From Kofleriaceae bacterium (lineage in GTDB: Bacteria; Myxococcota_A; Polyangia; Haliangiales; Haliangiaceae): a stretch of DNA of 41,825 nucleotides. The notes beneath the pieces are model-generated. The model ran no database searches, was not told the DNA's origin, and saw only the letters and a list, made by a program, of their open reading frames with translations. Of this stretch, positions 2,375-4,854 are shown in pieces (position 1 is the stretch's first letter; each line of letters opens with the position of its first letter). The DNA is taken from contig JBGARE010000037.1 of the NCBI GenBank assembly GCA_044230415.1, forward strand, positions 64,001 to 105,825, given 5' to 3'. Both the position numbers and the translations under genes were made by a program.

Positions 2375-3649
2375 TCAGTCCCCCGCTCGATTCGACGACT
2401 CGAGGTGGTCGATCTTCTCGCGAAGTCCGAGCACGATCTCGATGAACTTGGGATCGCGCTGCGTCACGATCGACGGCCGATCCGCCGGCGGCACGCGGAT
2501 GTTTTCCAGCACCGTACCCGGCGACGTCGAGAACATGAGGATGTGATCACCGAGGAACACGGCTTCTTCGATCGAGTGGGTGATGAAGAAGATCGTCGGC
2601 GATTGCTCGCGCCACAGCGCGACCAGGTTGTCCTGCATGCGCGAGCGCGTCGGCGGATCGAGCGCACCGAATGGCTCGTCCATCAGAATGATGCGCGGCT
2701 CGAGGATCAGCGTGCGCGCGATCGCGACGCGCTGGCGCATGCCGCCGGAGAGCTGGTGCGGGTACTTGTCCGCGTCGCGCTTGACCGAAAGGCCGACCTT
2801 CTCGATCCAGTAGCGCGCGCGGTCGTTGCGCTCGCTCTTGGACAGCTTCGGGACCGTGACCGTGCCGCCTTCGCCGCGGTGACCATCGGGCCCCTGTTGC
2901 TGCACGGTGAACACGTTCGCCGCCGGTGTCGCCGCGACTTCGAACGAGCCGTTGAACGAGGCATCGCCGACACCTTGGATCGCGATCTTCATACCGCGCG
3001 AGAAGTCGTGTGCTTGGTGCGTGGTGAACTGCGCGACCGTCTGCTTGCGCGACACACTCGCGATCGCGCGCGTCAGCCCACGGCACTCGAGGCCGAACGC
3101 CACGTTCTCGAGGACGCTACGGTTGTCGAACGAGGTGTAGTCCTGGAACACCATTCCGCGATCGGGACCGGGCCCCTTCACGGGCTTGCCGTCGATGAGC
3201 ACGCGACCCGAGGTCTGCGGGAACTGCGGCAGGAGCCCCGCGATCATGCGGATCACGGTCGACTTCCCGCAGCCCGACGGACCGAGGATCGACACGAACT
3301 CGCCGCGGCCCGGGTAATCGGGGATCTCGAACGTGACGTCCTTGATCGCGGTGAACGCGCTCGAGCCTTTGCCGTACGTCTTCGTCACCTTGTCGAACTG
3401 CACGACCGGCGGCTTCGCGAGCGGCTTGCCGAGCGGCGCGACCGGCTTCATCTCGATGCGCGGCTCGGGTGCAGGTGCTTTCGGCTCGGGAATCGCGGAC
3501 ACCTTTGCCGGCGAGTCCTCGGATTCGAGCGCGGCGAGCGCGGCTGCCTCGGCCGCGGGATCGCGCGTGGGGGGCGTGGGCGTCTTCGCGACGCCGCCCG
3601 CCGGACCCGTGCCCGTACCTCCCGGTGGTGCCTTGGGATCGTGACTCAT
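2375..3649 (-). CDS. ABC transporter ATP-binding protein, NitT/TauT (nitrate/sulfonate/bicarbonate) family. It has an ~85-aa Pro/Ala-rich N-terminal extension and a ~70-aa insertion between the Q-loop and signature motif.
   Basis: Walker A GPSGCGKST, signature LSGGMRQRVAIARTL, Walker B ILLMDEPFGALD and an H-loop ITHS are present. The true start is the MSHDPK ATG at 3649, by codon arithmetic in the 2375..4036 ORF. It overlaps the permease stop (ATGA). The upstream part of the track ORF (3650..4036) is an in-frame read-through of the permease antisense. Confidence 0.9.
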   Translation of the reverse strand: MSHDPKAPPGGTGTGPAGGVAKTPTPPTRDPAAEAAALAALESEDSPAKVSAIPEPKAPAPEPRIEMKPVAPLGKPLAKPPVVQFDKVTKTYGKGSSAFTAIKDVTFEIPDYPGRGEFVSILGPSGCGKSTVIRMIAGLLPQFPQTSGRVLIDGKPVKGPGPDRGMVFQDYTSFDNRSVLENVAFGLECRGLTRAIASVSRKQTVAQFTTHQAHDFSRGMKIAIQGVGDASFNGSFEVAATPAANVFTVQQQGPDGHRGEGGTVTVPKLSKSERNDRARYWIEKVGLSVKRDADKYPHQLSGGMRQRVAIARTLILEPRIILMDEPFGALDPPTRSRMQDNLVALWREQSPTIFFITHSIEEAVFLGDHILMFSTSPGTVLENIRVPPADRPSIVTQRDPKFIEIVLGLREKIDHLESSNRAGD

Positions 3650-4854
3650 AGATCCTTCCGCCACCGGAACGCCTCGCGCTGGAGGCCGCGAAGGAGGAAG
3701 TCGAGCGTGAACGCGACGAACGTGATCACGAACAGCAGCAGATAGATCTGCTCGTAGAGGCCAAGGCGCTGGCTCGTGTTGAGCATCGTGCCGAGCCCGT
3801 GCGGCGTGTTCACGATCTCGACGAGCATGATGTAGCCGAGCGCCAGCCCGAGGAGGAAGCGCAAGCTCGTGATGATGTCCGGCAACGCGAGCGGGATGAG
3901 CACCTTGCGCACGATCTGCCATCGCGACGCGCCCAAAGTCTGCGCTGTCTCGACGTATCTCTCGGGCACGATCGAGACCGCCTTGACCGTGTCGCTGAAC
4001 ACGAACGGAACGACCGCGAGGAAAATGAACATCCACTTCTGCTTCTCGCCGTCACCGAACAACAGCAGCGTGAGCGGGATCAGCGCGCCCATCGGGACCG
4101 AGCGCAAGAAGATGACGAGCGGCTCGAGCGCACTGCCGACACCGCGATTCGACCCCGCCAACACACCGACGGAGATGCCGATCAGCGCGGCGAGGCCGAT
4201 GCCCTTGAACACGCGGATCAGCGTGTCGATCAGCGAGTCGGTGAAGTCGCGATCGAGCAACTTGCCGAGCGCCCCGAACACCTCGCCCGGGCTCGGCAAC
4301 TTCGACGGCGACACGATGCGCGCGGTCGGGTCTTTGCCGTAGGTCAGGACGAACCACAACAGGAGCACGAACGCGATCAGTCCCGCGCCGAGCGCCGCGC
4401 GCACGAGCGGCGGCGGATCCGCGCGCAGCGTCTTCCACCACGGAGGTGCGGTGGGGAGCTTGTTCGGATCGTCGTCCTCGTCGATCGCCTCGGCTTTCGG
4501 CTCGGGCTTCTTCGGCTCGGGCTTCTTCGCCTCGGCTTTCGGCTCGGGCTTCGCGTCGACCTTCGGCGCGGGCTTCGCGTCGACCTTCGCCTCGGGCTTC
4601 GCCTCGGGCTTGGCCTCGGGGGACTTCGCCTCGGCTTTCGGCGTCGCCGGCGGAAGCTCGTCGGGAACCGATGCGGGCGCGGGCTTCGGCGGCGGTTCGC
4701 CCGAGAGCTCGGCTTCGAGCGCGGCGAGCGCTGCTGCTTCGGCCGCAGGATCACGCGGCGGCTTCGCGGGCGCAGCTTCCGCCTTCGGCGCATCCGCCTT
4801 CGGGGGCGCGTCCGTGGGAGCCTTCGGCGGCGGTGGATCCTTCGGTTCGGTCAC
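3646..4854 (-). CDS. ABC transporter permease (BPD_transp_1 / NitT-TauT type) with a ~150-aa low-complexity Pro/Ala/Lys/Glu-rich N-terminal cytoplasmic extension (PEAKPEAK repeats).
   Basis: ORF track 402 aa. Six predicted TM helices in the C-terminal 250 aa. The end resembles the conserved permease loop (TSQRLGLYEQIYLLLFVITFVAFTLDFLLRGLQ). The N-terminus has tandem KPEA/KVDA repeats. Confidence 0.85.
   Translation of the reverse strand: MTEPKDPPPPKAPTDAPPKADAPKAEAAPAKPPRDPAAEAAALAALEAELSGEPPPKPAPASVPDELPPATPKAEAKSPEAKPEAKPEAKVDAKPAPKVDAKPEPKAEAKKPEPKKPEPKAEAIDEDDDPNKLPTAPPWWKTLRADPPPLVRAALGAGLIAFVLLLWFVLTYGKDPTARIVSPSKLPSPGEVFGALGKLLDRDFTDSLIDTLIRVFKGIGLAALIGISVGVLAGSNRGVGSALEPLVIFLRSVPMGALIPLTLLLFGDGEKQKWMFIFLAVVPFVFSDTVKAVSIVPERYVETAQTLGASRWQIVRKVLIPLALPDIITSLRFLLGLALGYIMLVEIVNTPHGLGTMLNTSQRLGLYEQIYLLLFVITFVAFTLDFLLRGLQREAFRWRKDL
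4490..4640. repeat. Tandem short-period nucleotide repeats (ggcttcg / cgggcttcg units) encoding the PEAKPEAK / KVDAKP low-complexity linker of the permease.
   Basis: Directly visible as reiterated 'ctcgggcttcttcg / cgggcttcgcgtcgaccttcg' blocks on the plus strand. Confidence 0.7.

What the first reader, a model, noticed from the sequence alone, without database searches (positions are those of the whole stretch)
3525..4760. Duplicated ~47-bp segment gives the ABC ATPase and the permease the same N-terminal 'RDPAAEAAALAALE' helix after Pro-rich linkers
The segments near 3527..3577 and 4712..4757 are ~85% identical at the DNA level. In two different adjacent proteins they encode PTRDPAAEAAALAALESE and PPRDPAAEAAALAALEAE, each preceded by Pro/Ala/Lys-rich disordered linkers (PEAKPEAK tandem repeats in the permease). 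A shared short amphipathic helix on flexible tails of two subunits suggests a common docking motif, for example for the PspA polymer or the AAA+ ATPase (MIM-like). Alternatively it reflects recent intragenic recombination.
Basis: seen in the sequence. Interest (0 to 1): 0.55.

Follow-up and report, generated by a model that had tools for sequence, protein, structure and literature searches.

The report
Shared docking helix on ABC-transporter tails
Two different subunits of one bacterial ABC transporter, which is encoded beside PspA-type membrane-repair genes, carry the same 14-residue helix on floppy cytoplasmic tails. The peptide is kept by selection, not by recent DNA copying, so it is probably a handle for a common but still unidentified partner.

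Summary
**Observation:** confirmed. RDPAAEAAALAALE is encoded at window 3524-3565 (ABC ATPase, aa 29-42) and 4714-4755 (permease, aa 34-47), both on the minus strand. The copies match at 38 of 42 nt, and all four differences are synonymous.

**Not a recent recombination.** Two random back-translations of this peptide with local codon usage differ by 7±2 nt. In relatives, the two copies within a genome are no closer than copies from different genomes. Among close relatives, all 9 variable core sites are third codon positions, whereas flanks vary at every position.

**Distribution.** 107 of the 120 closest ATPase homologues carry the motif as a near-invariant island in a hypervariable, disordered tail. 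Only 13 of 116 permease homologues carry the strict form. In two genomes the ATPase lost it and the permease kept it. It occurs only in Kofleriaceae-like Myxococcota, although the operon spans several phyla.

**Context.** The operon (PspA, SBP-OmpA, permease, ATPase, TM coiled-coil protein, AAA+) was already described in silico (PMC11237479). The motif was not.

**Reading:** a tethered short linear docking motif, with two interchangeable copies. The partner is untested. It is not a literal MIM and not a membrane-binding amphipathic helix.

The parts
3524..3565 (-). ATPase copy of the motif, RDPAAEAAALAALE (aa 29-42).
   Evidence: AF2 predicts helix 31-44 with pLDDT about 57, flanked by segments below 50. 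Column entropy is about 0 bits across 79 orthologues.
4714..4755 (-). Permease copy of the motif, RDPAAEAAALAALE (aa 34-47).
   Evidence: The strict form occurs in 13 of 116 permease homologues and a degenerate ALxxLE core in 52 of 116.
3512..3582 (.). DNA repeat arm 1: the motif codons plus a few flanking bases.
   Evidence: family D3: 82% identity over 71 nt, spacing 1190 nt.
4702..4772 (.). DNA repeat arm 2.
   Evidence: family D3.
3593..3625 (-). Second invariant island of the ATPase tail, PGGTGTGPAGG (aa 9-19). It is never found on the permease.
   Evidence: G15, P16, G18 and G19 are invariant in 79 sequences, and 100 of 120 homologues carry the island.
3410..3523 (-). ATPase linker (aa 43-80) between the motif and the nucleotide-binding domain. 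It is Pro/Ala/Lys-rich and hypervariable.
   Evidence: AF2 pLDDT is below 50 for aa 44-70. Entropy is 2-3 bits. Linker length ranges from 31 to 126 aa among homologues.
4405..4713 (-). Permease linker (aa 48-150) between the motif and TM1. It includes the PEAK-type tandem repeats at 4485-4642.
   Evidence: No hydrophobic segment occurs before aa 153. Linker length ranges from 45 to 110 aa among homologues.
2375..3649 (-). ABC ATPase of the NitT/TauT type (424 aa), with an insertion of about 80 aa at aa 188-266.
   Evidence: PF00005. Closest solved structures are CmpD and NrtD. Best NCBIfam hits are TauB and NtrCD, both below their cut-offs. A 100% identical protein, P0001, is in the public collection.
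3646..4854 (-). ABC permease (402 aa, GTG start) with six TM segments. The EAA loop is at aa 302, so the N-terminal tail is cytoplasmic.
   Evidence: PF00528. Hydropathy profile and EAA-loop position.
4861..6609 (-). Membrane-anchored solute-binding protein fused to a C-terminal OmpA-like peptidoglycan-binding domain.
   Evidence: NMT1/NMT1_2 plus OmpA.
6613..7383 (-). PspA/IM30 homologue (256 aa, counted from the conserved MILGKFF start).
   Evidence: PF04012. Orthologues are 256 aa.
1423..2373 (-). Protein with two TM segments and a coiled coil (316 aa). It occupies the position of the 'SIG+TM+Snf7' gene in the published operon.
   Evidence: Conserved synteny. PMC11237479 Table S3. Snf7 homology was not confirmed here.
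1..1426 (-). 5' part of a classical-clade AAA+ ATPase gene (595 aa in orthologues). Its ATG at 1426 overlaps the preceding stop, and the gene runs off the left end of the window.
   Evidence: PF00004 at aa 336-461 of the L082 orthologue. Closest solved structures are Afg2, VCP and Cdc48.

Best explanation
The 14-residue segment is a short linear motif: a short, acidic, Ala-rich helix starting with an Asp-Pro N-cap. It is displayed on long, disordered, cytoplasmic N-terminal tails of a NitT/TauT-type ABC importer. That importer belongs to the PspA / SBP-OmpA / ABC / TM-coiled-coil / AAA+ cassette.

The motif's older and more widespread location is the ATPase tail. In a sub-lineage that includes this genome, the permease tail carries an equivalent copy. 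Because the transporter is probably a TMD2-NBD2 complex, each transporter would then display four copies on flexible tethers.

The two copies are functionally interchangeable handles that tie the transporter to one common cytoplasmic partner. The most likely partner is a component of the co-encoded ESCRT-III-like/AAA+ membrane-remodelling module: either the AAA+ ATPase or the basic helical hairpin of PspA or the TM coiled-coil protein.

**Shown:**
- the motif exists;
- selection acts on the peptide;
- the motif is a conserved island within a disordered tail;
- both copies are cytoplasmic;
- the motif is restricted to one lineage;
- its presence is complementary between the two subunits.

**Inferred:** that it is a docking site, and what it docks to.
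For: **1. Selection acts on the peptide, not the DNA.**
- Among nine copies from close relatives, all 9 variable sites in the 42-nt core are third codon positions. The 12 flanking codons vary at 10/7/10 sites in codon positions 1/2/3.
- The within-genome ATPase-permease distance is 4-6 nt, within the range of cross-genome distances.
- Random back-translation gives 7.0±2.0 differences.

**2. It is a conserved island in a disordered tail.**
- ATPase aa 29-39 and 42 have about 0 bits of entropy in 79 orthologues down to 65% identity. The neighbouring linker has 2-3 bits.
- AF2 gives an isolated helix 31-44 between segments with pLDDT below 50.
- The distance from motif to folded domain varies from 31 to 126 aa.

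**3. It is specific to this transporter.**
- A 34-column profile searched against 1.84 billion representative proteins found only 10 hits, all from this ATPase family.
- All 14 regular-expression hits in 1.8 Mb of loci lie in the two tails.

**4. The two copies look interchangeable.**
- In L166 and L167 the ATPase has lost the helix while the permease keeps a strict copy.
- In L083 (3-aa deletion) and L001 (AAFLAAE) the ATPase copy is degenerate while the permease copy is strict. In L085 the ATPase copy is also degenerate (ALAERQ), but its permease N-terminus lies off the contig.
- In L003 and L006 only the ATPase has the motif.

**5. Both tails are cytoplasmic.** The permease has six TM segments, with the EAA loop between TM4 and TM5.

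**6. The genes are co-transcribed.** The operon is tightly coupled, with ATGA overlaps, and its gene order is conserved with PspA, the TM coiled-coil protein and the AAA+. The literature already proposes that this cassette links membrane remodelling to transport (PMC11237479).
Against: - No interaction was tested or predicted, because multimer modelling was not available.
- The cassette works without the motif in Nannocystaceae and in at least five other phyla. The motif is therefore an accessory, not part of the core mechanism.
- No lineage-specific insertion of 5 aa or more appears in PspA, the TM coiled-coil protein, the AAA+ or p97 in motif-bearing genomes that could serve as a co-acquired receptor.
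- Nearly every residue, including the alanines on all helical faces, is conserved. A simple one-face docking helix would not need that.
- The complementarity pattern rests on few, phylogenetically related genomes.
Confidence: 0.5

Rival explanations
1. Self-association element. The Ala-rich helices pack against each other as an Alacoil-like two- or four-helix bundle. This would tether the two NBDs, tether NBD to TMD, or cluster neighbouring transporters. No separate partner would be needed.
For: - Alanines are conserved on every face of the helix: A32, A33, A35, A36, A37 and A39 are at least 90% conserved. That fits tight helix-helix packing.
- There are two to four copies per transporter.
- No co-acquired receptor feature was found in the operon proteins.
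- Interchangeability of the ATPase and permease copies fits this reading equally well.
Against: - Fourteen residues with net charge -4/-5 make a weak and electrostatically unfavourable homo-oligomer.
- Disordered linkers of 40-120 aa would give little mechanical coupling.
- AF2 gave only modest confidence for the helix and no packing onto the NBD.
Confidence: 0.2
2. AAA+ engagement tag. The long unstructured tails are initiation sites, and the helix is the recognition element, through which the co-encoded classical AAA+ ATPase grips the transporter subunits to extract, unfold or recycle them. This would be a degron-like or substrate handle rather than a stable docking site.
For: - The AAA+ is a classical-clade unfoldase-type module resembling Afg2/VCP/Cdc48 D2, encoded two genes downstream with translational coupling.
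- Motif-bearing lineages also have unusually long disordered tails on both subunits, with median length about 105 aa.
- From general knowledge, the Ala-rich 'AALAA' character recalls pore-engaged tags such as ssrA.
Against: - Lineages with the same AAA+ lack both the tails and the motif.
- The motif is internal and N-proximal, not a free terminus.
- No evidence shows that the transporter is a substrate.
Confidence: 0.15
3. A recent segmental duplication or gene conversion between the 5' ends of two adjacent genes, with no function of its own.
For: - 82% identity over 71 nt, 1190 nt apart.
- Some shared less-preferred codons: GAT, GCA and GAA.
Against: - The identity collapses immediately outside the 14 codons.
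- Four differences are within the expectation for independent back-translation (P=0.10).
- Within-genome copies are no more alike than cross-genome copies.
- The peptide is invariant while synonymous sites turn over.
- The ATPase copy is conserved in orthologues down to about 62% identity.
Confidence: 0.03
4. A membrane-binding amphipathic helix that anchors the tails to the inner leaflet, like PspA helix alpha-0 or the MinD membrane-targeting sequence.
For: - The helix is predicted.
- The transporter is at the membrane.
Against: - The hydrophobic moment is only 0.10-0.18 and the net charge is -4 to -5. The window's own PspA alpha-0 has muH 0.41 and charge +3.
- An acidic helix should be repelled by anionic bacterial lipids.
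Confidence: 0.03
5. A nucleic-acid-level element, either an mRNA structure or a protein- or sRNA-binding site, repeated about 85-140 nt into two consecutive genes.
For: - The position relative to the two start codons is similar: gene nt 85-126 and 100-141.
- The sub-string GCGCTCGCCGCGCTCGA is almost invariant.
Against: - Nine of the 14 third-codon positions in the core vary freely among close relatives, while no first or second position does.
- That is the signature of protein-level constraint, not nucleotide-level constraint.
Confidence: 0.02

Closest known systems
PspA / PBPB-OmpA / permease / ABC-ATPase / TM-Snf7 / (inactive AAA + AAA) operon, described by comparative genomics (mSystems 2024, PMC11237479, Text S2.2 and Table S3; example OGG56892.1)
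   Same: The gene order and domain content match: PspA_IM30, NMT1-type SBP fused to OmpA, BPD_transp_1 permease, ABC ATPase, a two-TM coiled-coil protein, and a classical AAA+. The cassette spans several phyla.
   Different: The paper describes no N-terminal tails or shared motif on the ABC subunits. The motif is an add-on limited to Kofleriaceae-like Myxococcota. Here the cassette continues with a 97-aa helical protein, a DUF3805-like protein and a PEGA protein.
MIT-interacting motifs (MIM1/MIM2) of ESCRT-III subunits, which recruit Vps4
   Same: Both are short helical peptides on a flexible tail, in a system that pairs ESCRT-III-superfamily proteins with a classical AAA+ ATPase. Both are conserved islands in otherwise variable tails.
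   Different: The sequence does not fit the MIM1 consensus. The motif sits at N-terminal tails of transporter subunits rather than at the C-terminus of an ESCRT-III protein. The AAA+ here has no MIT domain. The cassette's own PspA and TM coiled-coil proteins carry different conserved C-terminal tails.
NitT/TauT-family ABC importers (TauABC, SsuABC, NrtBCD/CmpBCD)
   Same: The NBD and TMD cores are of this family. The best solved matches are CmpD and NrtD. The best NCBIfam hits are TauB/NtrCD and TauC/SaoP.
   Different: All hits fall below the equivalog cut-offs. This transporter also has 80-150-aa disordered N-terminal tails with conserved islands, an ~80-aa beta-rich insertion in the NBD, and an SBP that is membrane-anchored and fused to OmpA.
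Regulatory disordered regions of ABC transporters, such as the M. tuberculosis Rv1747 FHA-linker and the R-regions of ABCC transporters (from general knowledge)
   Same: In each case a disordered cytoplasmic extension carries short functional elements that control the transporter's interactions or clustering.
   Different: Those systems act through phosphorylation and FHA domains, or as intramolecular regulators. Here the same helix is placed on two different subunits, and no phospho-dependence is indicated.

Membership tests
Short linear motif (SLiM) / tethered docking motif in a disordered region | A short (under 20 aa) conserved island within a fast-evolving, disordered segment. | tested here: met
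   Entropy is about 0 bits at aa 29-39 and 42, against 2-3 bits in the flanks, across 79 orthologues. AF2 pLDDT is below 50 for aa 1-29 and 44-70.
Short linear motif (SLiM) / tethered docking motif in a disordered region | Purifying selection acts on the peptide rather than on the DNA. | tested here: met
   All 9 variable core sites are third codon positions, and there is no amino-acid change among 9 close copies.
Short linear motif (SLiM) / tethered docking motif in a disordered region | The distance to the folded domain is variable, and the motif occurs on non-homologous carriers. | tested here: met
   Linkers span 31-126 aa on the ATPase and 45-110 aa on the permease. The motif occurs on both the NBD and TMD subunits.
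Short linear motif (SLiM) / tethered docking motif in a disordered region | A defined binding partner or domain. | not testable with these tools
   No multimer prediction or experiment was possible. No co-acquired receptor feature was found.
MIM1-type MIT-interacting motif | Consensus (D/E)xxLxxRLxxL(K/R) (from general knowledge). | tested here: not met
   DPAAEAAALAALE has no central Arg and no terminal basic residue.
MIM1-type MIT-interacting motif | Located at the C-terminus of an ESCRT-III-family protein. | tested here: not met
   The motif lies at aa 29-42 and 34-47 of an ABC ATPase and an ABC permease.
MIM1-type MIT-interacting motif | The cognate AAA+ carries an N-terminal MIT domain. 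| tested here: not met
   Pfam finds only PF00004 at aa 336-461 of the AAA+ and no MIT domain. The adjacent 97-aa helical protein gave no MIT-like fold match, with best Foldseek E-value 0.38 on a low-confidence model.
PspA / PBPB-OmpA / ABC / TM-Snf7 / AAA+ operon (PMC11237479) | PspA, then SBP+OmpA, then permease, then ABC ATPase, in this order on one strand. | tested here: met
   The same order is seen.
PspA / PBPB-OmpA / ABC / TM-Snf7 / AAA+ operon (PMC11237479) | A membrane-anchored divergent Snf7 protein follows the ATPase. | tested here: inconclusive
   A two-TM coiled-coil protein is present and syntenic. However, there is no Snf7 or PspA Pfam hit, and hhalign against the PspA profile gives probability 0.09.
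PspA / PBPB-OmpA / ABC / TM-Snf7 / AAA+ operon (PMC11237479) | A classical AAA+ with an inactive N-terminal AAA domain. | tested here: inconclusive
   One PF00004 module lies at aa 336-461, with Afg2/VCP-like matches. The N-terminal 330 aa were not classified here.
NitT/TauT ABC importer | The NBD, TMD and SBP are each most similar to family members. | tested here: met
   CmpD and NrtD are the best PDB matches. TauB/NtrCD, TauC/SaoP and TauA/SsuA-like are the best NCBIfam hits, all below their equivalog cut-offs.
Gene-conversion tract / recent segmental duplication | Copies within a genome are more alike than copies across genomes, and identity extends over synonymous sites and flanks. | tested here: not met
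Membrane-binding amphipathic helix | A high hydrophobic moment with a basic or neutral polar face. | tested here: not met
   The hydrophobic moment is 0.10-0.18 and the net charge is -4 to -5.

The most novel reading that the evidence does not exclude
The helix is the physical link between an ABC importer and a bacterial ESCRT-III-like/AAA+ machine. It would act as a bacterial analogue of MIM-type recruitment signals, evolved independently and placed on the cargo or partner instead of on the ESCRT-III subunit. Through it, the PspA / TM-coiled-coil polymer or the AAA+ would be recruited to the transporter, or would act on it.
Probability: 0.2. Interest if true: 0.75.

Novelty: new variant of a known kind. 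Interest (0 to 1): 0.45.

Why it matters
The PspA / TM-Snf7 / AAA+ / ABC cassette is known only from comparative genomics, and how membrane remodelling is coupled to the transporter is an open question (PMC11237479).

A strictly conserved 14-residue handle, displayed interchangeably on two transporter subunits in one lineage, gives a small, concrete reagent for finding the interacting component. Peptide pull-downs, point mutants and AF-Multimer screens could all use it.

The finding is also a clean example of one short linear motif being kept on two non-homologous subunits of a single bacterial complex. In some genomes one copy decays or is lost while the other is retained.

The scope is limited. 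The motif is confined to Kofleriaceae-like Myxococcota, and the cassette functions without it elsewhere.

Tried and rejected
- **Recent recombination or gene conversion.** Rejected on the evidence.
- **Motif on other protein families.** A profile of the motif searched against 1.84 billion representatives returned only ATPase-family N-termini. Sensitivity for the bare 14-residue core is low, so this is a weak negative.
- **Metagenome locus scan.** The back-translated patterns were generic ABC motifs, and only about 12 of the 80 loci were relevant.
- **Is the conserved 97-aa protein after the AAA+ an MIT-like three-helix receptor?** AF2 gave three helices at pLDDT 63, and Foldseek against the PDB found nothing better than E=0.38. 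Dead end.
- **Receptor co-acquired with the motif.** No insertion of 5 aa or more specific to motif-bearing genomes was found in PspA, the TM coiled-coil protein, the AAA+ or p97. The PEGA protein downstream correlates only loosely with the motif: it is absent from L086, which has a divergent motif.
- **Does the motif depend on the ATPase's beta-rich insertion?** No. Orthologues without the insertion still have the motif.
- **Snf7 or PspA homology of the TM coiled-coil protein.** Not detected by Pfam or hhalign.
- **Literature.** A full-text search for the peptide string found nothing. Only one paper describes the operon.
- **My own early error.** I used ORF 216-1349(-) as a query. It is a shadow frame of the AAA+ gene, and the high-GC sequence still gave 38-71% tblastn hits. 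This was corrected.

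
Full report
**1. What is in the sequence**

All genes around the finding lie on the minus strand and are tightly packed.

| Window coordinates | Product | Evidence |
|---|---|---|
| 6613-7383 | PspA/IM30 | |
| 4861-6609 | Membrane-anchored NMT1-type solute-binding protein fused to an OmpA domain | |
| 3646-4854 | BPD_transp_1 permease, GTG start | |
| 2375-3649 | ABC ATPase; its ATG overlaps the permease stop as ATGA | |
| 1423-2373 | Protein with two TM segments and a coiled coil | |
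| 1-1426 | Classical AAA+ ATPase; ATG at 1426, runs off the left end of the window | |

The peptide RDPAAEAAALAALE is encoded at 3524-3565 (ATPase aa 29-42) and at 4714-4755 (permease aa 34-47). The copies match at 38 of 42 nt, and the four differences are all synonymous. The repeat finder reports 82% identity over 71 nt, at 3512-3582 versus 4702-4772. No third copy exists in the window. The PEAK-type tandem repeat, with period 12/24 nt at 4485-4642, is real.

**2. Is the DNA similarity a recombination footprint?**

No, for three reasons.

- I used the codon usage of 19 window genes. With it, two independent back-translations of this peptide differ at 7.0±2.0 positions, and P(≤4)=0.10. Peptide identity plus codon bias explains nearly all of the DNA identity.
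- In relatives that carry both copies (L081, L082, L084, L001), the within-genome ATPase-permease distance is 4, 4, 6, 4 and 12 nt, the first value being the window itself. Cross-genome ATPase-permease distances among the close relatives are 3-9. Orthologous ATPase-ATPase distances are 2-5 and permease-permease distances 3-8. There is no concerted evolution.
- Across nine copies from the close clade, the 42-nt core has 9 variable sites. All are third codon positions, and there is no amino-acid change. The 12 flanking codons vary at 10/7/10 sites in codon positions 1/2/3.

Selection therefore acts on the peptide. The same pattern shows that the tails are translated in this frame, and it argues against a nucleotide-level element.

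**3. Conservation**

*ATPase.* Of the 120 closest ATPase homologues, which are Kofleriaceae and other Myxococcota MAGs down to about 62% identity, 107 carry the motif. In addition, 100 carry a second island, PGGTGTGPAGG, upstream of it. In a 79-sequence alignment, aa 11-19 and aa 29-39 plus 42 have about 0 bits of column entropy. That is as low as in the catalytic core. The residues between and after these islands have 2-3 bits. The linker from motif to NBD varies from 31 to 126 aa. AF2 with this alignment predicts an isolated helix at 31-44 with pLDDT about 57, between segments with pLDDT below 50.

*Permease.* The picture is patchier. Only 13 of 116 homologues have the strict motif, and 52 of 116 have a degenerate core such as AAKDAALAALEADD or EQADALAALEAEE. 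Others have short tails or a different conserved island, GEQLAEKLAGSNPVEPK.

*Specificity.* A profile of the motif searched against 1.84 billion representative proteins returned only this ATPase family. A regular expression run over 1.8 Mb of loci in six frames hit only the two tails.

**4. Interchangeability of the two copies**

| Genome or locus | ATPase copy | Permease copy | Evidence |
|---|---|---|---|
| Window, L081, L082, L084 | Strict | Strict | |
| L083 | Degenerate (3-aa deletion) | Strict | |
| L001 | Degenerate (AAFLAAE) | Strict | |
| L085 | Degenerate (ALAERQ) | N-terminus off the contig | |
| L166, L167 | Helix lost, GTGPAGG kept | Strict | |

This fits two redundant copies of one function. 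The sample is small and phylogenetically clustered, so the pattern is suggestive only.

**5. Topology**

The permease has six hydrophobic segments. The EAA-type loop (ETAQTLGAS, from aa 302) lies between TM4 and TM5. No hydrophobic stretch occurs before aa 153. The N-terminal tail is therefore cytoplasmic, like the ATPase tail. With one permease gene and one ATPase gene, the transporter is presumably TMD2-NBD2. It would display four copies of the helix.

**6. Physical character of the helix**

The motif begins with Asp-Pro, a typical helix N-cap. It has net charge -4 to -5 and a hydrophobic moment of only 0.10-0.18. The window's own PspA alpha-0 helix has muH 0.41 and charge +3. The motif is therefore not a membrane-binding amphipathic helix. 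Alanines on all helical faces are conserved.

**7. Genomic context and what is already known**

Orthologous loci show that the operon continues past the AAA+ (595 aa). Next come a conserved 97-aa helical protein, a DUF3805-like protein, a PEGA protein and a hybrid histidine kinase. The AAA+ has one PF00004 module at aa 336-461, and its closest solved relatives are Afg2, VCP and Cdc48.

The core of the operon is PspA, SBP-OmpA, permease, ATPase, TM coiled-coil protein and AAA+. It is conserved in Myxococcota, Acidobacteriota, Planctomycetota, Verrucomicrobiota, Gemmatimonadota and Hydrogenedentota.

[quoted passage not shown] The authors suggested that it links membrane remodelling with solute transport (PMC11237479). 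That paper does not mention tails or motifs on the ABC subunits. A full-text search for the peptide found nothing.

The motif is lineage-specific. The Nannocystaceae locus L009, the Acidobacteriota locus L010 and the planctomycete loci have short ATPase and permease N-termini without it. More distant Myxococcota carry divergent versions, such as VDPAAAAAALAELEA and FDPIAAEDALRALEG.

**8. Mechanism**

The best-supported reading is a tethered short linear docking motif. Its two copies are interchangeable handles that connect the transporter to a common cytoplasmic partner. The co-encoded ESCRT-III-like/AAA+ module is the obvious candidate.

An acidic helix could bind the basic hairpin of PspA-family proteins, in the way that acidic C-terminal helices do in ESCRT-III. 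That analogy rests on general knowledge. Alternatively, the helix could recruit the AAA+. Partner identity is inference only.

I found no receptor feature co-acquired with the motif in PspA, the TM coiled-coil protein, the AAA+ or p97. There is no MIT domain in the AAA+ and no MIT-like fold for p97. The literal MIM-MIT analogy therefore fails its membership tests.

Two rivals remain viable.
- Self-association of the Ala-rich helices. This is favoured by the all-face conservation and the multiple copies, and disfavoured by the charge and the short length.
- A substrate or degron-like handle for the AAA+.

Recent gene conversion, membrane binding and an RNA/DNA-level element are rejected by the tests above.

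**9. Verdict**

The recombination alternative is refuted, and 'MIM-like' holds only as a loose functional analogy.

The operon type is known. The shared motif is, as far as I could find, undescribed. It is confined to one myxobacterial lineage. I classify it as a new variant of a known kind, of moderate interest.

Noticed in passing
window 2852-3088 (-), ATPase aa 188-266: An ~80-aa beta-rich domain is inserted in the helical subdomain of the NBD. AF2 models it confidently, with pLDDT about 90. It is present in the closer orthologues and cleanly absent from others (P0088-P0120) that still carry the N-terminal motif. Its function is unknown.
   Followed up: partly
window 3593-3625 (-), ATPase aa 9-19: A second invariant island, PGGTGTGPAGG, lies upstream of the helix on the ATPase tail. 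G15, P16, G18 and G19 are invariant in 79 sequences. It never occurs on the permease, and it is retained in L166 and L167 even though the helix was lost there.
   Followed up: partly
permease homologues P0183, P0195, P0210, P0217-P0229; planctomycete loci L012-L020: Other clades carry different conserved islands on the same tails. Some permeases have GEQLAEKLAGSNPVEPK, and planctomycete ATPases have VG[MI]GEVL.HVQ. The N-terminal tails of this transporter family may therefore be general platforms for lineage-specific short motifs.
   Followed up: no
window 6613-6760 (PspA C-terminus) and 1423-1520 (C-terminus of the TM coiled-coil protein); alignments A5 and A6: Both ESCRT-III-like candidates end in conserved tails of similar pattern: ...DLEVELGMRAPETSPV... 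and ...ELQQITGVSDADTTPSIL.... The hhalign match between them is not significant (E=0.59). These tails, rather than the ABC tails, could be the cassette's own AAA+-recruiting elements.
   Followed up: partly
window 1-1426 (-) and 216-1349 (-): The real gene here is the AAA+ ATPase, in the frame of the ATG at 1426. The listed ORF 216-1349 is a shadow frame of that gene. It still produced 38-71% tblastn matches across phyla, which is a high-GC artefact worth remembering.
   Followed up: yes
L082 10026-10319 and orthologues (P0250-P0369): A 97-aa helical protein always follows the AAA+, also in Planctomycetota, and is about 80% identical among Kofleriaceae. Several JGI records label it 'aldehyde:ferredoxin oxidoreductase', which looks spurious. 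AF2 predicts three helices at low confidence, and there is no fold match.
   Followed up: partly
window 4861-6609 (-): The solute-binding protein has an N-terminal TM anchor and a C-terminal OmpA-like peptidoglycan-binding domain. It could therefore bridge the inner membrane and the cell wall. The substrate is unknown; the best NCBIfam hits are urea, taurine and sulfonate binding proteins, all far below their cut-offs.
   Followed up: no
window 7979-8749 (+), 9722-14913 (-), 16725-18185 (+), 18272-19948 (+), 24542-25897 (-), 36921-39242 (+): Other genes in the window: an EI24/CysZ-like membrane protein divergent from the operon; an unknown 460-aa protein; an NtrC-type sigma-54 activator and a histidine kinase upstream, syntenic in L006 and L081 and thus likely regulators; SelA; a ParA-like ATPase with an HTH_25 domain; a second NtrC-type regulator; and RelA/SpoT.
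   Followed up: no
window 3524-3565 and 4714-4755, and orthologues: Within the motif codons, GAT for Asp occurs in 13 of 16 copies although GAC is the preferred codon. The string GCG-CTC-GCC-GCG-CTC is almost invariant at synonymous sites. This is a mild excess of nucleotide conservation that peptide selection does not explain.
   Followed up: no
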